Shown here in pieces: positions 8,882 through 16,698 of a DNA stretch of 22,975 nucleotides. The notes under the pieces are model-generated. The model ran no database searches. It worked only from the letters and a program-made list of their open reading frames with translations, and had not been told where the DNA came from. Source of the DNA: a virus; IMG/VR virus record IMGVR_UViG_3300019375_000023. One strand, written 5' to 3'. Each line of letters starts with the position of its first letter. Position 1 is the stretch's first letter. Position numbers and translations under genes: made by a program.

Positions 8882-9178
8882 CCTGCTTTTTTAAGGGTAT
8901 TTTTTGAACATTATTACAGTTTTTTAAAAAAATATTAAACACGAAAAATGAAAATACGGGGTTTTAATTTTTCCAAATGAACAGTTACCCGAATAAAAAA
9001 ATAAATCTTAAACAAAAATAAAAAATAAGCATGGAAAACCAGTTAATCACAGAAAACAAAATATTTTCCTCAACAACAACATCCAGTGTTATTTTGCTTT
9101 TTTGAAGGTTTTCCGTTAAAAAAAGTTTAAAGAAGCAAGGAGCATGCCCTATTTGTGAACACAAAAAATTATTGTTAA

Positions 9179-9262
9179 TGGTAGAAGCAGGATTTGAACC
9201 TGCGGACCTACTAAAGGAATGAGTCCTAAGCACATCGTCTTTGACCACTTGACTATTCTACC
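9179..9262 (-). tRNA. tRNA-Leu(UAG), type II
   Basis: Acceptor GGTAGAA/TTCTACC plus A73. D arm GTC-AAGTGGTCAAA-GAC. Anticodon arm ATGTG-CTTAGGA-CTCAT (one T-T mismatch). Long variable arm. T arm GCAGG-TTCAAAT-CCTGC. No encoded CCA. Confidence 0.92.
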
Positions 9263-9276
9263 CAAAAAAAGTTGTA

Positions 9277-9348
9277 TAGTCCTATCAGGAGTCGAACCTG
9301 AGTCAGCGGGACCAAAACCCACCATGATTGCCATTACACCATAGGACT
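9277..9348 (-). tRNA. tRNA-Gln(UUG), archaeal type
   Basis: Acceptor AGTCCTA/TAGGACT (A1-U72) plus A73. Anticodon arm GTGGG-TTTTGGT-CCCGC. T arm TCAGG-TTCGACT-CCTGA. 72 nt, no encoded CCA. Confidence 0.93.
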
Positions 9349-9356
9349 AAAAAAAA

Positions 9357-9875
9357 TTAAACAAACTCTGATAAATAACATGCTAATAAAGAAGCCCCAT
9401 ATTTATTAAAAATAGCATCAATTTTTTTAAAATCAGGAAACATTCTATTAGAATCATCTTTATGAATAACATCATTACGATATTCATATTTTGCTATAAT
9501 TTGTTCTTCAGAAGCAAATTTGAATTGAGATAAAAGATCAATAAACTCAATAAAATCATTATTATTTTTCATCATTTGATACTTTTCCCAGAATTCCCCA
9601 GCTATTATTCCTTCAAATTCAGGATGACAATCTAACCATTCAATGATAATACTATTCCTTATCATAATTGGATTTTTTGAAAGTTTACATTTTTCATCCA
9701 ATAATTGATCTATCTTATGTATAGTTTCTAATAAATTTTTAGATTTTAAGAATCTATCACGTTCATTTTGCTTATCATAATAACTAAATAATATTTCTGG
9801 TACATAGTCTTCCAAATGAACTAATTCATCCATATGATCATTGATGAAATGTGAATCAAATTGAAGTACTTTCAT
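9357..9875 (-). CDS. Hypothetical protein (candidate immunity protein)
   Basis: 172 aa from ATG 9875 (ATGA overlap, GGTGA SD). Acidic and helical. No recognisable family. Confidence 0.6.
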   Translation of the reverse strand: MKVLQFDSHFINDHMDELVHLEDYVPEILFSYYDKQNERDRFLKSKNLLETIHKIDQLLDEKCKLSKNPIMIRNSIIIEWLDCHPEFEGIIAGEFWEKYQMMKNNNDFIEFIDLLSQFKFASEEQIIAKYEYRNDVIHKDDSNRMFPDFKKIDAIFNKYGASLLACYLSEFV

Positions 9876-10192
9876 TCTTTCACCTCTTTCCATATGAATA
9901 AATCCCAGTGGCCAGTGGCTTCACAATATTCTCTGACTATGCGGTCTTGAGCTTCGTCCCATGTTTCACCAGGGTTAATCCAAGGATCACCTCTACCGAA
10001 AATATACCAATTGCCACTTTCTCTTTGATGTTTTTGATACATACGATCCCAAATATCCTGCAACTGCTCACCATCATCAGAACATTTGGATCTACGCCAC
10101 AACCATTGAGGAAATAGAACAGTAGTGTTATTTATAATATCTTCAGCATGATCAATCAAATAGTTTATATTAATAATTTCTGCTCTTTTCAT
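9872..10192 (-). CDS. Hypothetical Trp-rich protein (candidate immunity protein)
   Basis: 106 aa starting 4 nt after the MuF-ART stop. No recognisable family. Confidence 0.6.
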   Translation of the reverse strand: MKRAEIININYLIDHAEDIINNTTVLFPQWLWRRSKCSDDGEQLQDIWDRMYQKHQRESGNWYIFGRGDPWINPGETWDEAQDRIVREYCEATGHWDLFIWKEVKE

Positions 10193-10196
10193 TTTA

Positions 10197-13100
10197 TCAT
10201 CCCACTATTCTTAACAGTATATGTTTTAATTTTTCACCATTAGCACCTTTAACAGTTTTATCCTCGAATTTAACCAACTCTACTTTAGATTTTTTTAATA
10301 AAAATTCCATTTCATTCGCATATTTCTCTCCTACGAAAGGAGATGTTGGATTTATTATTTCTCCTTGTTTTATTGGAGCTAAATATGCTCCTTTAGTACC
10401 TGCTGGAGCCTCAATTTCAATTAAATAATTCATCTCTTTAGCGTTAGTTTTACTGAACCATAATGCCCCTTCTTTGGAAATAGCTGTAGATCTGAAATTA
10501 GGGAAATCCATAACCTCACCAATCGTGGTGGAACTTAAATTATGATTCTCTTGTACACGCCATAATGTCATACCTTCTTTCAATTGATTATTTAATATAT
10601 CATCTAAAACAGGCACATCATGAGCAATAGATTCTGCTAATTTTTTAGCTTCAGATTTTGATATTCTACCTGTTCTCCTGGTTATTTCATCATAATAATA
10701 CTGATAATATTTTAATGAATTGTCTTCTTTGTATGCTTTGGCCATGTCATAAATCCATTTCTCGAATTTCTTAACATCACGCCCACAATCCACTTCAAAG
10801 TTAGTGAATGCTTTATAATCCGAACCCAACCATCTATCCGCTACTTTTTGTTCACGTATGGTCATTTCACGTGCATCTTTAGTGAAATACTTTTCTAAGG
10901 ATTCACCATTCGGGAGTAAACCTTCCTCATTAGTGCCTTTAAATGTTTTTAAATTCTTAGGATTTTTATCTAAAGAAATTTTAGATTCATACCCTGTTAA
11001 AGGTTGCTCTAAAACACTTTTATCTAATTTAAGTTTTGTTTTTAATGATTTATATAATTTTTTAAACTCAATAGTAGCATCATAATCTAAACCTTTTTCT
11101 GTTTGATTAATATTATTCAAGTAAATGAATCTTTGTTGATTATGTAATTCATCCATTGTTTTTAATTCATTTGAAGTTAATTTTCGTCCGTATAATTGTT
11201 TTTTCTCTAATTCATATAATTTATCTGCTTCTTTTTTAGTAAGTTTAAATTCTGTAGCATTCTTATAATAATCATATGAAATAAATGATTTTTGTTGTGT
11301 AGTGAATTTTAAATCAAGGGATAATTCAGGTAAATTCCATTGTTTTCGATATCGAGAATACAATTCAACATATGTTTTAGATTTAGTTTCACTCAAACCG
11401 TTTCCAATCAATTCTTGATGTTTTTGATGGAGTTGTAATTTAGTTGATAATTGAGAGTAGTATTCTTTTTCATCCGTTGACAAGCTACCTTTGTTCTTTT
11501 TAAGTTTTTTGTATGCTTGTTTTTCTTCAGATGTTAATTTGAATGCATCTTTATCTTTAAAAATAGTTTTTTTGTTAATTTGTATTGGTTTTATTTCAAT
11601 GTCGCCTTTTGGAGTCCAATCTTTGAATTTTTTCATTAATTTTTCATATCTTACACCCTCTCCCCCAGATAGCTCCATTACATCATTAGGATTTCCTCCT
11701 TCACGTAATATTTTATTCCATAATGAGTTGAATTCTTTTCTATCTGCCAATTCCTTATAACTACGTTTTTCTATCATACCTAATGAATCTTTTTCAGCTT
11801 CTAATTTTGCTAATGTTTTTTCTTCAACCGATGTCAAAGCATATTTATTATAGTCTTTATTATTAATTGGTGTTGAATGTCTTTTAACACCAGTTAACTC
11901 TTCAAAACTTCTTTTATCTACTTTTAATTCTTTTTTACTTATTGTTTTAATAGATTTTGGATTTATTTCTGTATGCATTACTCTTTTTACTTTTAATCCT
12001 TTGATATTTGATGTATATTCAAGTATTGCATCACCTAATTCTTTATTATGTTTGTCTAAGAATTCATTTGCAACATATTTTTCAAATTCTTTTTGAGCGG
12101 ATTGTCTTTTAACAGGGTCTTTAATCTTATTAATTTTAAGTGATGACTTACGATATTCATCGGTTAACTTTTTTAATTGTTTTTGTTCTAATCTATCAAT
12201 ATCTACAGTTATTTTATTAATTTCTTTAGAAGTTAATTTGCCTTCATTTTTTATGAACCATGATTCTTTTCTTGAGATATTTATTCCTACACGTTCATTT
12301 TTTGAGTTTAAGAATTCAAAGAAATCTCCTGAAGATGTAGGTCTAAAACCCTCATCAGTATGGTAGTGTATTGTACTATATTTTCCATTTGGTTTGGTTA
12401 ATACTATATCATTACTAGCTCCTTTAAATTCTTTAGATAAGAATTTACCGTTTTTCTCATTGAATACTACACCATATTCTATATCAGAGCCAATTCTACG
12501 TTTAGTATATCTTTGAATTGTTTCCATTCCTTTTTCAGTTATTCCAAATTCTGATAAATCTTCATTAGGTATTGAGAATTTAGAATCAATTAATTTAGGA
12601 TTAATAATGTCTAAGTCAAAAGATGATGATTGTTTTGGTATTGCTGAGACTTCATCTTGGAATTGTGTTAATAAGTCTCCACCGGTTCCTAATGTTCCTA
12701 AAGGTAATAAATCAGACTCCCTAAAATTAGACATACCCACAGGCACCATCATACCAGGAGGACAAAACCACGGTAAAACACCACAACGACAATTAATCCA
12801 CTCACTAATCGGACCATTTGTATCTCCAGGATACCTTAAACCATTACTGAAAACACCGTTCCAGGGTATGATTTCACCGTCTAATGCTGCATGTGTGTCA
12901 CGTGTACGGTTGTCATGTGCTGCTCCCCATTGTAAGTATTCTACGCCCATGTCTTCATATGAGTTCATTACTCCTTGCATATGTGACCCGTGTATTTCGG
13001 TTCTTGCTATGCGTCGTGCTTCCCATGTTTCTAGCTGGTTGAAACGGGTTTCTATCTTGTTAGCTACATCGTTTATACCCCATCCATCACGGTAGCCATC

Positions 13101-13622
13101 TGTGATTATGCCGTTAATATCTTTATCTACACGTGCTAAGGTGTTTTCACTTGCAACAAATGTCTTGTCACGCATTTGTTCAGCACTGTAGTCTGAAGTA
13201 GCAAATAATTCATCTTTCTTGATTATGCTATTCATAGGAACATTAATCGTGTCCTCTTTAACAGCACCACCATAATAAGCTTTACTGTATTGTTTGGCGT
13301 ACTGTTTAGCACGTGCAATTAATCTTTTTCCTTGAACACGTCCTTTTCTATGCTCTTTGAGCTTGTATTTCATTATGGTGTCATAGTATTGTTTGTGATG
13401 CTCATGTATGGGTGCTAATATTAAATCCATGTGTGCATTAAACAGCACATCACCGTAATACTCTTCAAGATTCTTGAGTATTTCTGTACGGATACTATGG
13501 AATATTCCAGCTACACTTGTTTTTAATTCCTCTTCATACATGTATTGTATGATATTTTCCATTTTAGCAGCAAATAAACTATTATTAATATGTTTAATCT
13601 GTTTCTCCAATTCCTGTGTCAT
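10197..13622 (-). CDS. MuF/SPP1 gp7-like minor head protein fused to a JAB/MPN-like domain, helical repeats and a C-terminal ADP-ribosyltransferase
   Basis: MuF motifs ARRIARTE, HDNRTRDTH, YPGD...INCRC. JAB-like E382..H419-x-H421..S430..D433. ART motifs R1022 (LWRV), S1045-T-A and E1104-x-E1106 (NEMEFLL). Confidence 0.88.
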   Translation of the reverse strand: MTQELEKQIKHINNSLFAAKMENIIQYMYEEELKTSVAGIFHSIRTEILKNLEEYYGDVLFNAHMDLILAPIHEHHKQYYDTIMKYKLKEHRKGRVQGKRLIARAKQYAKQYSKAYYGGAVKEDTINVPMNSIIKKDELFATSDYSAEQMRDKTFVASENTLARVDKDINGIITDGYRDGWGINDVANKIETRFNQLETWEARRIARTEIHGSHMQGVMNSYEDMGVEYLQWGAAHDNRTRDTHAALDGEIIPWNGVFSNGLRYPGDTNGPISEWINCRCGVLPWFCPPGMMVPVGMSNFRESDLLPLGTLGTGGDLLTQFQDEVSAIPKQSSSFDLDIINPKLIDSKFSIPNEDLSEFGITEKGMETIQRYTKRRIGSDIEYGVVFNEKNGKFLSKEFKGASNDIVLTKPNGKYSTIHYHTDEGFRPTSSGDFFEFLNSKNERVGINISRKESWFIKNEGKLTSKEINKITVDIDRLEQKQLKKLTDEYRKSSLKINKIKDPVKRQSAQKEFEKYVANEFLDKHNKELGDAILEYTSNIKGLKVKRVMHTEINPKSIKTISKKELKVDKRSFEELTGVKRHSTPINNKDYNKYALTSVEEKTLAKLEAEKDSLGMIEKRSYKELADRKEFNSLWNKILREGGNPNDVMELSGGEGVRYEKLMKKFKDWTPKGDIEIKPIQINKKTIFKDKDAFKLTSEEKQAYKKLKKNKGSLSTDEKEYYSQLSTKLQLHQKHQELIGNGLSETKSKTYVELYSRYRKQWNLPELSLDLKFTTQQKSFISYDYYKNATEFKLTKKEADKLYELEKKQLYGRKLTSNELKTMDELHNQQRFIYLNNINQTEKGLDYDATIEFKKLYKSLKTKLKLDKSVLEQPLTGYESKISLDKNPKNLKTFKGTNEEGLLPNGESLEKYFTKDAREMTIREQKVADRWLGSDYKAFTNFEVDCGRDVKKFEKWIYDMAKAYKEDNSLKYYQYYYDEITRRTGRISKSEAKKLAESIAHDVPVLDDILNNQLKEGMTLWRVQENHNLSSTTIGEVMDFPNFRSTAISKEGALWFSKTNAKEMNYLIEIEAPAGTKGAYLAPIKQGEIINPTSPFVGEKYANEMEFLLKKSKVELVKFEDKTVKGANGEKLKHILLRIVG

Positions 13623-15201
13623 TGTTAACTCCTAAAAAATCATCATCCTCTTCAGAGTCTTGCCAGAGATTACCATCCAAAGCCTTCAAAATACTCTTTT
13701 CTTCCAAGTAACTATTCTGTTCTGATTGATTGAAAACTTGCTCCAACGGGATATTATTAATGAATCTACTGTTCAAATAAGGGTCATTTGGGTCATCAAC
13801 AGCCAAACCGAATTCATCACCAAAATTATTAATCAGATCCATAATAGTCATTGCACCACGTGCAAATAAAAAATCAGCTAAATCTTTACGTGGGCTATGG
13901 TCAATTGGATCCACATCATTAATAACAAATTTCCAACTAGTCACTTTTAATTCAGCTGCTATCTGATTTATCATAGATTCAACTTCAGTTTTAATTGGTG
14001 CAATAGTACCATACTTATAGGATGCTTTAGTGACTTCAGAATTAGTACCATTTAAATTGCCACTGTCAAAAATACCTAAACGTGAAGGGTCAACCTGGTG
14101 AGCGTGTATTACTTCATCACGTATGTCTTTTTTCATCATTCTGAAAGAGCCTTCTTTAACGTCAACACTTAATTGAGTGATTTTAATTTCTACATCTCCG
14201 TCTACTCCTTCAGATGGTACTGTAATACAAATAGCTGAATGTGGATTGCGTATTACTTCTTTTACTTGCTGTGATATTTGGTATCTTAAAGTTTGCTTTT
14301 CATCATAATCGGGATTGAGAATTTCACGTCCATCATCGTCTTTTATATATTTCTCTTCCTCGTAATCTTGGAAATCTCCAGTTACTGTGACTGCGAATGC
14401 TGGCATACCATAATTCTGGAAAAAAGTAGTATTATAACGTACCGCAGCTAAATCAGATTGTATGGATGGTAATGTAGCTATAATTGGTGGTCTACCATAA
14501 TAATTTGTTCCTGGAGCATACTCCATAGTCCATAATAATTCATTAGCTTTTTCTTCCATGCTTAAACTATTATATGGATGGAATTCACCTGTCTTCATAT
14601 GAACATCAACTGGATTTCCATCATCATCGTAATTTTTACCATATAGCACATACCAGACTTTTTTTCCTGTGTCATCTGTGTATAATACTCTTTTCATGTC
14701 TGTATGACGGCGTAATGTGTGTGATGGTATGTGTTTTAAACGTGTTATAGGTGATTTACTAGTGGATTCTCTTATTACTTCCATTGCACCATAGCCTATG
14801 CTTCTACGGTCATAAATCATACGGTGAATGTGAATATTAATTGAAGGTTTACTATTATCTAATATTTCTGTGAATCTTATTTTCTCACTTTCAACTTCAT
14901 CTTTTCCTTCAATAGGTTTCAATGTATAATCTACACCACTGGCGTCTGTTGCAACAGCATCAACACAATCAGCATGATAACTATACAAATCTAATAATTC
15001 AATTAAATTATAAGGATTATATTTCGGGTCAATAACTGTTATTCCATGAGCATAATGATCACTAGGTGTTTGTTTACTCCCCGTAGTAGGGTCAACATCT
15101 GCTTTTATAGCATATTTGCCCATTTCAATTTCGCTTATAACATCTTTAACGTCACCAGTAGTTTCGTCTACTGTTACTATCCATGATTCTGATTTAACCA
15201 T
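13594..15201 (-). CDS. Portal protein (PBSX / psiM2-like)
   Basis: 535 aa after TerL. YYGRPP, FFQNYGMPAFAV, IHAHQVDPSRLGI and TIMDLIN motifs typical of portal proteins. Confidence 0.9.
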   Translation of the reverse strand: MVKSESWIVTVDETTGDVKDVISEIEMGKYAIKADVDPTTGSKQTPSDHYAHGITVIDPKYNPYNLIELLDLYSYHADCVDAVATDASGVDYTLKPIEGKDEVESEKIRFTEILDNSKPSINIHIHRMIYDRRSIGYGAMEVIRESTSKSPITRLKHIPSHTLRRHTDMKRVLYTDDTGKKVWYVLYGKNYDDDGNPVDVHMKTGEFHPYNSLSMEEKANELLWTMEYAPGTNYYGRPPIIATLPSIQSDLAAVRYNTTFFQNYGMPAFAVTVTGDFQDYEEEKYIKDDDGREILNPDYDEKQTLRYQISQQVKEVIRNPHSAICITVPSEGVDGDVEIKITQLSVDVKEGSFRMMKKDIRDEVIHAHQVDPSRLGIFDSGNLNGTNSEVTKASYKYGTIAPIKTEVESMINQIAAELKVTSWKFVINDVDPIDHSPRKDLADFLFARGAMTIMDLINNFGDEFGLAVDDPNDPYLNSRFINNIPLEQVFNQSEQNSYLEEKSILKALDGNLWQDSEEDDDFLGVNNDTGIGETD

Positions 15202-15228: not shown

Positions 15229-16698
15229 TTATGCGTGTATTTTAGCTCGTCTACGCTTCCAATGGCGGGCAGAACCAGTTGCTACATCTGTGATATTGTC
15301 CTGGCCTCCTTCCTCACCAGTGAATTCAACTAATTCATCAACCACCATGTCAAAAATATCTTCTGAAATACGTACTTTATCAGCCTCTGCTAATGCCTGC
15401 AAGTCAAAACTACGTGTTAATTTATCACCATAATCCCTTACTCTATCCGGCCTTATACTATAACCTTTGAATTCTTTTCTACGTGCTAAGTTATTGATTA
15501 AAACTTTAGGTGATGCACCAGGTTCTTGCTCTATTTTAACACGTGTACTTTTACCATCACGTAGAGTAGTGTCTAGGAAGTATTTTTCAACCTGTAATGG
15601 GGTTAATCCTTTATGTAAGAGTTTTCTCATGTACATATATTCACCATCCCATGCAGTGTACAGGGCTGCTGTTGGATCTCCATCCTCACCTGAAGCTCCA
15701 AGATCCCAGTATCGTAATGTAGGTAATTTAACAATGAGCTTATCCATTTCTTTAGGTGACATTTTACTGTTACGAAACCATTTACGGAAAAATACATTAC
15801 CTTCAGGTTCACGTGGGTTTCCTTGATATACTGCGTTGAATCTGAAACTACCCATTTCAGTTTTAATGTGTTGGAGTTCTTCTAATGGTTTTTGTTCTGG
15901 CCATAATGGCTCTCCAGGAGCTCTTCCTAACGGGTCATTTTCTTCAGCTATAGCAGGTAAGTTTAAGATTACCCATGTTCCATAAGGTACATCCTCGTTT
16001 TCTTCCTCTATTATTCTCATAGCCTCTTGATAGGTTATGTGAGGTTCATTTGGTACACGTTTGTCTCCTTCTTTTTTGTATAATATTTGACCGGCTAAAT
16101 CGTCTATGTTAAGTCTTTGCCATATTCCTATTACCCATGGTTTACTTCCACCTTCAATATCTGCATTTAAACGGGTTTTAGCTTCTGTAAACCACCAATC
16201 GTTTAGTTCTTTTTGATGTGTTTTACTTCTTGCTTTTTTGAAACCTTTAGTTGGATCATCTATGATGAAACCATTTGCACCCTCACCCAGAATAGATCCA
16301 CCAACACCTGCTGTGACAAGACCGCCTTTATGGTCTTTAATGTTCCAGGTATGAGCAGCTTTACTGTCTTCAGCCAGTACTATAGGAACTTCAAATGCAT
16401 CTTTTCCTATGTATTCTAGAAGGTTACGTACTCTACGACCCCATTTACGACTGAAATTAGCGCTATGAGTAGTGAGTATTACCTGTTTATCAGGAAAACA
16501 CCCTAGGAACCATGTTAAAAAATAGTAACTTATTAGCTCAGATTTACCATGTCTTGGAGGCATGAATACCATTAAACGTGATATGCGACCTTCTATTACA
16601 TAATGTAATAGCTTAACCACTAGTAATAAGTGTATGAATGGTTTCCAAGCTCCTCTGCTTACTAATTGTGCGAATTCATCAATAGTTAAGGGTTCCAT
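15229..16698 (-). CDS. terL: Terminase large subunit
   Basis: Walker A MPPRHGKS, Walker B FIIDD, coupling motif region WQR, and RNase H-like nuclease residues WDLG and QDNITD. Confidence 0.95.
   Translation of the reverse strand: MEPLTIDEFAQLVSRGAWKPFIHLLLVVKLLHYVIEGRISRLMVFMPPRHGKSELISYYFLTWFLGCFPDKQVILTTHSANFSRKWGRRVRNLLEYIGKDAFEVPIVLAEDSKAAHTWNIKDHKGGLVTAGVGGSILGEGANGFIIDDPTKGFKKARSKTHQKELNDWWFTEAKTRLNADIEGGSKPWVIGIWQRLNIDDLAGQILYKKEGDKRVPNEPHITYQEAMRIIEEENEDVPYGTWVILNLPAIAEENDPLGRAPGEPLWPEQKPLEELQHIKTEMGSFRFNAVYQGNPREPEGNVFFRKWFRNSKMSPKEMDKLIVKLPTLRYWDLGASGEDGDPTAALYTAWDGEYMYMRKLLHKGLTPLQVEKYFLDTTLRDGKSTRVKIEQEPGASPKVLINNLARRKEFKGYSIRPDRVRDYGDKLTRSFDLQALAEADKVRISEDIFDMVVDELVEFTGEEGGQDNITDVATGSARHWKRRRAKIHA

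What the first reader, a model, noticed from the sequence alone, without database searches (positions are those of the whole stretch)
10197..13622. Virion-packaged multi-effector MuF protein (MuF + JAB + repeats + ADP-ribosyltransferase) in an archaeal virus
Seen: the MuF core (about aa 1-285) carries ~850 extra residues. These end in an R-S-E ART with all catalytic motifs: R1022, S1045-T-A and E1104-M-E1106 (the ExE form is typical of Arg-specific enzymes). Established: MuF/gp7 proteins bind portal and DNA and are ejected with the genome. T4 Alt is a virion-carried ART that modifies host RNAP. MuF-toxin fusions are known from bacterial prophages, usually with one toxin domain. Inference: a methanogen virus injects two enzymes at entry, an ART acting on host transcription, translation or defence proteins and a JAB metallo-enzyme. 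I know of no characterised archaeal equivalent.
Basis: partly seen in the sequence, partly recalled or inferred. Interest (0 to 1): 0.86.

Follow-up and report, generated by a model that had tools for sequence, protein, structure and literature searches.

The report
Methanogen-virus head protein carrying two toxin-like enzymes
A virus of gut or rumen methanogens (Methanobrevibacter) fuses its MuF head protein to a JAB-type metalloenzyme and an ADP-ribosylating toxin domain and follows it with small antidote-like genes, which extends the bacterial "MuF toxin plus immunity" system to archaeal viruses, where I found no description of it.

Summary
A 1141-aa minus-strand ORF (10197-13622) lies directly after terminase and portal. 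It contains:
- a MuF domain (Pfam E 3e-13);
- a JAB/MPN-like domain (aa ~345-480; motif E382, H419-x-H421, S430-xx-D433; best fold matches Z 6-7.7 are almost all JAB/MPN; sub-threshold hit to DUF4329 = Tox-JAB-2);
- two clear ~100-aa repeats plus a weak third;
- a C-terminal R-S-E ADP-ribosyltransferase (Pfam ADPrib_exo_Tox above cut-off; AF2 pLDDT 86; top 50 PDB fold hits all Certhrax/iota/CDTa/VIP2/C3; R1022 and E1106 invariant in 49 homologues).

The carrier genomes are methanogens (mcrA present; homologues are named Methanobrevibacter in NCBI).

New here: this gene belongs to a large polymorphic MuF family, in which a conserved head module carries swappable C-terminal cassettes. Every close ART copy is followed within a few bases by a co-diverging homologue of the 106-aa ORF. 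A complex model supports binding between that ORF and the ART domain (score 0.74, best control 0.00). The 178-aa ORF tracks the JAB module. Antidote-like genes also occur without the toxin.

The best reading is an archaeal-virus MuF polymorphic toxin-immunity cassette, closest to Bxa/Bsi of a Bacteroides prophage. Packaging, injection and targets are inferred, not shown. Earlier notes of this scan report MuF-ART fusions on other DNA, mostly bacterial.

The parts
10197..13622 (-). Whole MuF-JAB-repeat-ART fusion gene (1141 aa plus stop)
   Evidence: Single open frame. 17 clusters at 90% identity share the same full architecture.
12705..13622 (-). MuF (SPP1 gp7-like) head module, aa 1-306. It ends in the conserved junction G-M-S-x-F-R-E-S-D-L.
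   Evidence: Pfam Phage_Mu_F E 2.9e-13 and PHROG head morphogenesis. F300 is invariant and R301, E302, D304, L305 are at least 90% conserved in 40 homologues. Homologues diverge after about aa 306-342.
12183..12590 (-). JAB/MPN+-like metalloenzyme module, aa 345-480 (E382; H419-x-H421; S430-xx-D433 at nt 12324-12368)
   Evidence: Sub-threshold DUF4329/Tox-JAB-2 hit. AF2 pLDDT 82.8. VIA Z 7.7 to PfJAMM1, 7.5 to Cap3 and 6.5 to RadC. Motif conserved.
11871..12182 (-). Lys-rich helical linker, aa 481-584. It travels with the JAB module.
   Evidence: The start of this stretch (to about aa 499) is modelled as one long helix that begins inside the JAB module. Homologues with MuF+JAB+link but no ART exist.
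10881..11870 (-). Pre-toxin repeat region, aa 585-914. There are two significant ~100-aa repeats and a weak third. It always precedes this ART clade.
   Evidence: Repeat statistics are. The region plus ART moves as one unit (q~590-1141) in 28 homologues that lack JAB. The same repeat motif stands before non-MuF ART copies.
10200..10880 (-). R-S-E ADP-ribosyltransferase domain, aa 915-1141 (R1022 nt 10557-10559; S1045-T-A nt 10482-10490; E1104-M-E1106 nt 10305-10313)
   Evidence: Pfam, PDB profile, AF2 model, fold search and residue conservation.
9872..10192 (-). orf106: candidate cognate immunity protein of the ART domain. It starts 4 nt after the ART stop.
   Evidence: It lies directly downstream of all 11 ART copies with at least 45% identity and co-diverges with them (74-77% beside ARTs of 71-80% identity; 45-47% beside ARTs of 53%). 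It is a conserved protein with 25 invariant columns in 16 sequences. ORFs downstream of diverged ARTs are remote homologues (hhalign E 1e-5). The complex model scores 0.74 against a best control of 0.00.
9357..9893 (-). orf178: second small gene, overlapping the end of orf106. Candidate partner or immunity protein of the JAB module.
   Evidence: Present after the three JAB-bearing copies with full context (L027-L029). Absent after JAB-less copies L031, L033, L034 and L035. No Pfam family. Binding was not tested.

Best explanation
This is the polymorphic-toxin (effector) cassette of a tailed virus or provirus of Methanobrevibacter-type methanogens.

Proposed mechanism:
1. The conserved N-terminal MuF module (aa 1-306) is the head-targeting part. 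By analogy with SPP1 gp7 it binds the portal and is packed in a few copies per capsid.
2. It drags along a swappable C-terminal cargo. In this virus the cargo is two enzyme modules: a toxin-type JAB metalloenzyme, and an arginine-type (ExE) mono-ADP-ribosyltransferase of the C2/C3/VIP2/Certhrax clade preceded by its own repeat region.
3. During late gene expression in the producing cell, the ART is held inactive by the product of the next gene, orf106, which binds the ART domain close to the S-T-A motif. orf178 probably serves the JAB module in the same way.
4. After ejection into a cell that lacks these small proteins, the ART uses NAD+ to modify host proteins and the JAB domain cleaves an unknown substrate. 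This harms or reprogrammes the recipient.

Shown here: domain identities, catalytic residues, cassette exchange, toxin-partner genetic linkage, and a predicted complex.
Inferred: packaging, ejection, toxicity, targets and JAB activity.
For: Gene order. Terminase, portal, MuF fusion, two small ORFs, two tRNAs, XkdF-type protease, major capsid protein, tail genes, all on one strand.

Domains. MuF, ART and JAB assignments rest.

Polymorphism. Among the 119 best homologues the MuF module is constant. 17 have MuF+JAB+linker+repeat+ART, 28 have MuF+repeat+ART, 21 have MuF+JAB without ART, and 45 have other C-termini. Pfam names only ADPrib_exo_Tox among the C-termini of the 40 representatives scanned.

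Cassette and backbone evolve independently.
- In L027 the backbone is 92-99% identical (MuF 92, portal 94, protease 97, MCP 99) but the cassette is only 60-82%.
- In L028 the backbone is 39-57% identical but JAB is 81% and ART 80%.

Partner linkage.
- 11 of 11 ART copies with at least 45% identity are followed within about 6-40 nt by an orf106 homologue, including MuF genes without JAB and a 320-aa ART ORF left by a frameshift.
- ARTs of 25-37% identity are followed by other small ORFs instead. In L046 and L043 these are remote orf106 relatives. In L041 the ORFs were not compared by profile.
- Orphan orf106(+orf178) copies sit beside ART C-terminal stubs (L037, L040) or with no ART at all (L036).

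Complex model (ART + orf106). Score 0.74, best of 3 controls 0.00. That mark was reached by 58 of 80 solved complexes and 2 of 110 mismatched pairs. Partner pLDDT is at least 78, and two of three runs were high. The interface includes ART residue 131 (= S1045) and the invariant F-G-R-G-D loop of orf106.

Precedent. Bxa (MuF-ART, Arg-specific, immunity proteins Bsi and BAH), Apk2 and EFV (PMC11699363, PMC5576092).
Against: There are no virion proteomics and no activity data.

One of the three complex runs scored 0.00, and the runs agree in 0% of contacts by the tool's lower bound.

The loci compared are related, so the 11/11 and 3/3 against 0/4 counts are not independent events.

JAB fold matches (Z below 8) lie within the range that unrelated models can reach (note). 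No significant sequence hit to any JAB family was obtained. The HxH-to-Ser spacing is one residue longer than canonical.

orf178-like genes also occur in genomes with no detected JAB hit (G198, G242).

No ADP-ribosyl-hydrolase-type immunity gene is present.

The prohead protease could remove the cargo before DNA packaging.
Confidence: 0.7

Rival explanations
1. Alt-like host-takeover effector. The injected ART modifies a specific host machine, such as RNA polymerase, translation factors or a defence protein, to favour the virus. It is not a growth-arresting toxin. orf106 would be a chaperone or timing inhibitor rather than an immunity protein.
For: MuF-ART fusions of the Alt/VIP2 family are read this way by Iyer et al. 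2022 (PMC9503650). The ExE form fits Arg-specific enzymes such as Alt. The gene sits in the late head module.
Against: Toxin-less orphan copies of orf106/orf178 in other genomes, sometimes beside ART stubs, fit protection against an incoming harmful enzyme better than they fit a chaperone. The cassette is exchanged and diversifies independently of the backbone, as in conflict systems. The two readings are not mutually exclusive.
Confidence: 0.2
2. The JAB domain is not a second effector but a releasing or processing peptidase. It would cut the ART cargo from the MuF anchor after ejection, as HINT, ZU5 or PVC-metallopeptidase modules do in bacterial polymorphic toxins.
For: It lies between the anchor and the terminal toxin, which is the usual place of releasing peptidases (PMC3482391). 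The fold resembles JAMM isopeptidases.
Against: 28 homologues carry the same repeat+ART module directly on MuF without any JAB. 12 carry a JAB-like module as the only recognised cargo, and in several of these it lies near the C-terminus. The presence of orf178 tracks the JAB module. The nearest sequence families are terminal toxin domains, Tox-JAB-2 and Toxin-JAB1.
Confidence: 0.12
3. The cargo is not delivered by injection at all. The fusion is released on lysis and acts outside or on neighbouring cells, or the C-terminal part is clipped off by the prohead protease and acts only inside the producing cell.
For: Bxa, the best-studied MuF-ART, acts on epithelial cells after release (PMC11699363). 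An XkdF-type protease gene lies about 1.2 kb downstream. No proteomic data exist.
Against: A cytoplasmic enzyme that needs NAD+ has no obvious route into a pseudomurein-walled neighbour other than the virion. The MuF anchor is conserved in every family member, which argues that head targeting matters.
Confidence: 0.1

Closest known systems
Bxa-Bsi-BAH of the Bacteroides stercoris prophage PhiBxa (MuF-ART polymorphic toxin; PMC11699363)
   Same: N-terminal MuF domain in the head-morphogenesis module. C-terminal Arg-type ADP-ribosyltransferase. Small adjacent ORFs, one of which (Bsi) neutralises the toxin by binding. The MuF part is fused to different toxins in relatives.
   Different: The host is an archaeon. 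The ART has only remote sequence relatives among bacterial toxins (best solved-structure profile hit E 2.8e-9). There is no ADP-ribosyl-hydrolase immunity gene. orf106 has no Pfam family. An extra JAB module and a repeat region lie between anchor and toxin. No experiments exist.
MuF polymorphic toxins of temperate phages (Jamet et al. 2017, PMC5576092), including the EFV toxin of Enterococcus faecalis V583
   Same: Conserved MuF, variable C-terminal toxin, downstream immunity-like genes, residence in proviruses. 14% of their 191 MuF toxins are putative ARTs.
   Different: That paper's text does not mention archaea ('archaea' occurs 0 times). Here there are two enzyme modules in one protein, and a family-specific junction motif (F-R-E-S-D-L).
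T4 Alt and the Alt/VIP2 family of head-packaged ARTs (Iyer et al. 2022, PMC9503650)
   Same: R-S-E ART of the same broad family, proposed to be packed in the head and ejected with the DNA.
   Different: Alt is not a MuF fusion and has a defined target (RNAP alpha). No target is known here, and an immunity-like partner is present.
Tox-JAB-2 (Pfam DUF4329) toxin domains of polymorphic toxins (Zhang et al. 2012, PMC3482391)
   Same: E, H-x-H, S, D motif on a JAB/deaminase-like fold, used as a toxin module with a dedicated immunity protein. Also seen in caudoviruses.
   Different: The match is below the Pfam cut-off (22.6 against 28.6 bits). The module is internal, not terminal. The partner candidate orf178 gave no Pfam match at E <= 0.01, so it is not recognisably an Imm-NTF2-type protein.
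Polyvalent or multi-enzyme MuF proteins of bacterial phages (kinase + ART), as reported in earlier notes of this scan
   Same: More than one enzyme on a MuF anchor, with small co-varying partner genes.
   Different: The enzyme pair (JAB + ART) and the host domain differ.

Membership tests
MuF / SPP1 gp7 minor head protein (Pfam PF04233) | Significant match to the family model | tested here: met
   51 bits against a cut-off of 29.6, E 2.9e-13, aa 168-282. PHROG head morphogenesis E 4e-32.
MuF / SPP1 gp7 minor head protein (Pfam PF04233) | Gene lies next to portal and terminase in the head module | tested here: met
   TerL at 15229-16698 and portal at 13594-15201, which overlaps the start of this gene.
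MuF / SPP1 gp7 minor head protein (Pfam PF04233) | Present in virions and ejected with the DNA | not testable with these tools
   No proteomic data. Inferred from SPP1 gp7.
R-S-E ADP-ribosyltransferases, C2/C3/VIP2/Alt group (Pfam PF03496) | Match to the family model above the curated cut-off | tested here: met
   The domain alone scores 35.2 bits against 23.4, E 1e-8. It is not reported on the full-length protein. 5 of 40 relatives also pass.
R-S-E ADP-ribosyltransferases, C2/C3/VIP2/Alt group (Pfam PF03496) | Catalytic Arg, S-T-S-type motif and [E/Q]-x-E | tested here: met
   R1022 49/49, S1045 43/49, E1104 E45/Q4, E1106 49/49.
R-S-E ADP-ribosyltransferases, C2/C3/VIP2/Alt group (Pfam PF03496) | ART fold | tested here: met
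   AF2 pLDDT 86. The top 50 Foldseek PDB hits are all ART toxins, E down to 5e-9 and probability 1.0.
R-S-E ADP-ribosyltransferases, C2/C3/VIP2/Alt group (Pfam PF03496) | NAD+-dependent ADP-ribosylation of a protein target | not testable with these tools
   Needs a biochemical assay.
MuF polymorphic toxin-immunity systems (Jamet 2017; Bxa, Apk2) | Conserved N-terminal MuF with variable C-terminal modules among close relatives | tested here: met
   13 C-terminal groups among 120 family members, with breakpoints at aa ~306-342 and ~590.
MuF polymorphic toxin-immunity systems (Jamet 2017; Bxa, Apk2) | Cognate immunity gene directly downstream that varies with the toxin | tested here: met
   11/11 linkage with co-divergence. 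Orphan copies exist. The complex model scores 0.74 against a control of 0.00. This is genetic and in-silico evidence only.
MuF polymorphic toxin-immunity systems (Jamet 2017; Bxa, Apk2) | Toxicity of the C-terminal domain, neutralised by the partner | not testable with these tools
   Needs expression tests.
JAB/MPN+ (JAMM) metalloenzymes, including Tox-JAB-2 (DUF4329) | E ... H-x-H-x7-S-x-x-D metal-binding motif | tested here: inconclusive
   All four elements are present (E382, H419, H421, S430, D433), but with 8 rather than 7 residues between the second His and the Ser. The Asp is replaced by Asn in most chromosomal relatives.
JAB/MPN+ (JAMM) metalloenzymes, including Tox-JAB-2 (DUF4329) | Significant sequence match to a JAB family model | tested here: not met
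   DUF4329 scores 22.6 bits against a cut-off of 28.6. 5 of 24 relatives give sub-threshold hits and Toxin-JAB1 gives 1 of 24. The profile search against PDB sequences found nothing.
JAB/MPN+ (JAMM) metalloenzymes, including Tox-JAB-2 (DUF4329) | JAB/MPN fold | tested here: inconclusive
   VIA Z is 7.7 (rmsd 3.0 over 101 residues) to PfJAMM1, 7.5 to Cap3 and 6.5 to RadC. JAB/MPN proteins dominate the top rows, but Z is below 8. Foldseek was not significant.

The most novel reading that the evidence does not exclude
Tailed viruses of methanogens run a full polymorphic toxin-immunity arms race through their capsids, and this cassette delivers a pair of enzymes that act together on archaea-specific targets. 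For example, the ART could ADP-ribosylate an archaeal transcription or translation factor, while the JAB enzyme strips SAMP/Ubl-type modifications or disables a Ubl-dependent defence. orf106 and orf178 would then be founding members of new archaeal immunity families that hosts capture as stand-alone defences against incoming virions.
Probability: 0.15. Interest if true: 0.8.

Novelty: new variant of a known kind. Interest (0 to 1): 0.55.

Why it matters
MuF-anchored toxins with immunity genes have been described and tested only in bacterial prophages (EFV, Apk2, Bxa). Zhang et al. 2012 state that polymorphic toxin systems are generally rare in archaea.

This gene shows that Methanobrevibacter viruses hold a large family of such cassettes. 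222 relatives passed E <= 0.001 among the candidates scored, and at least 13 C-terminal types occur among the best 120. Most of these C-termini have no Pfam assignment in the 40 representatives scanned, and public records name the proteins only as 'phage minor head protein'.

If the ART and JAB modules are active, they would be the first virion-borne enzymes known to act on methanogens. The family would give candidate tools, and candidate targets, for manipulating the main methane producers of gut and rumen. It would also supply a set of new immunity proteins and unexplored effector domains.

Mechanistically it extends a known principle rather than introducing a new one.

Tried and rejected
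The gene is on the minus strand.
- Pfam on the full-length protein misses the ART. It appears only when the domain is scanned alone.
- phmmer of the ART domain against PDB sequences gave only Lmo0066 at E 0.088. The profile search was needed.
- A scan of IMG/VR with JAB-domain peptides found no relative.
- Foldseek of the JAB model against PDB gave no match with E <= 0.001. The JAB profile against PDB sequences gave nothing meaningful.
- The ESM Atlas feature search with the repeat region (aa 585-915) gave no usable hit. Pfam gave nothing for aa 492-914. The role of the repeat region stays unknown.
- Tandem Repeats Finder found no DNA repeat in the gene. The third protein repeat is not significant.
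- orf106, orf178 and their neighbours have no Pfam family.
- The window's own assembly is not held. mcrA was not found in the nearest genome G001 but was found in G218 and G183.
- The compendium paper on methanogen viruses (Nat Microbiol 2023) is not in the library.
- I considered reading the stand-alone ~245-aa JAB-like ORFs as viral. They lie among housekeeping genes (ribosomal L15e, FmdE, a KH protein), so they are host genes.
- Only one complex job was allowed, so JAB with orf178 was not modelled.


Full report
**What is there**

The coordinates 10197-13622 hold one open frame of 1141 codons on the minus strand. The plus strand is full of stops. The gene overlaps the end of a portal gene (13594-15201), which follows a large terminase gene (15229-16698). 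Downstream on the same strand lie:
- two small ORFs (9872-10192, 106 aa; 9357-9893, 178 aa);
- tRNA-Gln(UUG) and tRNA-Leu(UAG);
- an XkdF-type prohead protease, a major capsid protein, tail genes and a tape-measure gene.

This is the late structural module of a siphovirus-type tailed virus.

**Host**

- The best match in the phage collection is the MuF gene of Methanobacterium virus Drs3, at 36% identity over aa 30-303.
- NCBI names several homologues 'phage minor head protein [Methanobrevibacter sp.]'.
- The identical protein is recorded on contigs of up to 219.7 kb.
- Sister copies lie in chromosomal contigs of genomes that encode McrA (G218, G183).

The element is therefore a virus, most likely a provirus, of Methanobrevibacter-type methanogens.

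**Domains**

- *MuF.* Pfam Phage_Mu_F is clearly met at aa 168-282, E 2.9e-13.
- *ART.* The last 227 residues alone pass the curated cut-off of ADPrib_exo_Tox, 35.2 against 23.4 bits. A profile of 14 relatives finds Certhrax (2.8e-9), CDTa, iota Ia, Lmo0066, a 212-aa ADP-ribosyltransferase (1ojq) and Vip2 among solved structures. An AlphaFold2 model (pLDDT 86.3) matches only ADP-ribosylating toxins of this group in its first 50 Foldseek hits.
They are conserved in 49 homologous modules: Arg 49/49, last Glu 49/49, Ser 43/49, and Glu (45) or Gln (4) at the first ExE position. An E/Q alternation at this position is, from general knowledge, the known specificity switch of the family.
- *JAB.* A 161-residue stretch (aa 340-500) spanning the JAB module (aa 345-480) was modelled at pLDDT 82.8. 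In an exhaustive structural comparison it is closest to P. furiosus JAMM1 (Z 7.7), Cap3 (7.5), RadC (6.5) and AF2198 (6.2), with JAB/MPN proteins filling nearly all rows above Z 5. It carries E382, H419-x-H421 and S430-x-x-D433. The Glu, the first His and the Ser are at least 90% conserved in 24 relatives.
- *Limits of the JAB call.* No sequence model is met. DUF4329 is the only recurrent sub-threshold hit. Zhang et al. 2012 equate DUF4329 with the toxin domain Tox-JAB-2 and suggest it may be a nuclease rather than an isopeptidase. I regard the JAB fold as likely and its activity as open.
- *Repeats.* Between JAB and ART lie a Lys-rich linker whose start is modelled as one long helix, and a repeat region. 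Two ~100-aa units are significantly alike (z 8.3). A third shares only a short motif. There is no repeat at DNA level.

**The family**

A search of 5.8 billion proteins returned 222 relatives at E <= 0.001 among the candidates scored, and the best 120 were listed. The relatives share the MuF module up to a conserved F-R-E-S-D-L junction and then diverge. Three breakpoint-delimited modules recur:
- MuF (aa 1-306);
- JAB plus linker (aa ~345-590);
- repeats plus ART (aa ~590-1141).

Among 119 relatives:

| Architecture | Count |
|---|---|
| MuF + JAB + linker + repeats + ART (as here) | 17 |
| MuF + repeats + ART, no JAB | 28 |
| MuF + JAB, no ART | 21 |
| MuF + other C-termini | 45 |

Pfam scanning of 40 representatives named only ADPrib_exo_Tox among the cargo.

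The ART clade itself is narrow. Only 46 representatives out of 1.84 billion reach E <= 0.001, and several of the best are the MuF-fusion relatives already found in the first search.

**Cassette behaviour**

- In the nearest genome (L027) the virus backbone is almost identical to the window (portal 94%, protease 97%, capsid 99%), yet the cargo and the two small genes are only 60-82% identical.
- In L028 the backbone is distant (capsid 39%, portal 57%), yet JAB and ART are 80-81% identical.

Cargo and backbone therefore have different histories. This is the signature of polymorphic toxin loci.

**The small genes**

- Across 314 genomes of the family, every ART copy with at least 45% identity (11 loci) is followed within about 6-40 nt by a homologue of orf106. 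This holds for MuF genes without JAB and for a 320-aa ART ORF left by a frameshift.
- The partner diverges in step with the ART. It is 64-77% identical (74-77% in L027-L030) beside ARTs of 71-80% identity, and 45-47% beside ARTs of 53%.
- ARTs of 25-37% identity are followed by other small ORFs. Two of these are remote orf106 relatives by profile comparison, E about 1e-5.
- orf106-type genes also occur without a toxin. They are found beside a 40-residue ART stub (L037, L040) or alone with orf178 (L036).
- orf106 is a well-conserved protein, with 25 invariant columns in 16 sequences.
- orf178 follows the three JAB-bearing genes with full context and is missing after four JAB-less ones. That sample is small and the loci are related.

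**Complex prediction**

The model supports binding but does not show it.
- Score 0.74, best of 3 controls 0.00. That mark was reached by 58 of 80 solved complexes and 2 of 110 mismatched pairs.
- Partner pLDDT is at least 78.
- Agreement between runs is at least 0% of contacts, and one of the three runs scored 0.00.
- The confident interface joins the invariant F-G-R-G-D loop of orf106 to the N-terminal helices of the ART domain and to residue 131, which is S1045.

**Interpretation**

The best-supported reading (confidence about 0.7) is a MuF polymorphic toxin-immunity cassette of an archaeal virus. It is mechanistically parallel to Bxa/Bsi/BAH, Apk2 and EFV of bacterial prophages.

- *What differs from those systems:* the archaeal host, the extra JAB module with its own candidate partner, the repeat region that belongs to the ART module, and immunity-like proteins with no known family.
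- *What stays inferred:* that the cargo is packaged and ejected, that it is toxic, what it modifies, and whether the JAB domain is active.

The orphan partner genes and the cassette exchange argue for a conflict system. The idea that JAB merely releases the toxin is unlikely, because the same ART module is attached to MuF without JAB in 28 relatives, and JAB-like modules are the only recognised cargo in 12 relatives.

**Novelty**

Literature searches found MuF-ART fusions and MuF toxins only for bacterial phages. Nothing was found on MuF toxins or ARTs in archaeal or methanogen viruses. One relevant paper could not be read.

Earlier notes of this scan describe many bacterial MuF-ART cassettes, some with two enzymes. 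They also include two unverified first-reader notes on other archaeal viruses.

I therefore class this as a new variant of a known kind, of moderate interest.

Noticed in passing
L005:1324-2061 (-), L010:1318-2052 (+), and about 15 further loci: Methanobacteriaceae chromosomes encode a conserved ~245-aa protein with a JAB-like domain (H-N-H-P ... S-P-P-S-x-x-N). It is 21-33% identical to the viral module and lies among housekeeping genes (ribosomal L15e, FmdE, a KH-domain protein). It may be the cellular relative or source of the viral JAB module. Its Asp is mostly replaced by Asn.
   Followed up: partly
L037:3621-4728, L040:2536-3481, L036:4091-4918: Toxin-less copies of orf106 (+orf178) occur in other genomes. 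Two sit next to a stub that encodes only the last ~40 residues of the ART domain. This resembles the orphan immunity genes and displaced toxin tips of bacterial polymorphic toxin loci.
   Followed up: partly
window 9179-9349 (-): tRNA-Leu(UAG) and tRNA-Gln(UUG) sit between the cassette and the protease gene. In sister viruses (L035, L041, L046, L047) a conserved ~105-aa gene occupies the corresponding stretch between the cassette and the protease gene instead. The 87-aa ORF at 8985-9248 overlaps tRNA-Leu and is probably not a gene.
   Followed up: partly
proteins P0034, P0043, P0064, P0098, P0114 and others: 45 of 119 MuF relatives carry C-terminal modules of 300-1100 aa that match none of this gene's cargo modules. 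They fall into at least 8 groups. A Pfam scan of 40 representatives named only ADPrib_exo_Tox and one DUF4295 hit among the C-termini. This is a pool of unexplored candidate effectors of methanogen viruses.
   Followed up: partly
L041:3249-7361 (-) (P0022, 1370 aa): This relative has about 218 further residues after its ART domain. Three small ORFs (82, 105 and 105 aa) lie downstream instead of an orf106/orf178 pair.
   Followed up: no
L035:1195-4718 (+) (G176): Here the MuF-repeat-ART gene is interrupted by a frameshift in the repeat region. This leaves a 320-aa ART ORF (P0121) that is still followed by orf106. In G014 the ART is broken into fragments with many stop codons.
   Followed up: partly
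P0155 (7004 aa), P0123 (1837 aa), P0147 (1876 aa); Distant relatives of this ART domain sit inside giant proteins. A member of P0155's cluster is named by JGI as NUDIX / DNA polymerase III epsilon-like. These may be polyvalent proteins of other mobile elements.
   Followed up: no
window 12705-12737 (-), aa 296-306: The motif G-M-S-x-F-R-E-S-D-L at the end of the MuF module is nearly invariant across 40 relatives and lies just before the recombination breakpoints. It may be a pre-toxin junction or a processing site.
   Followed up: no
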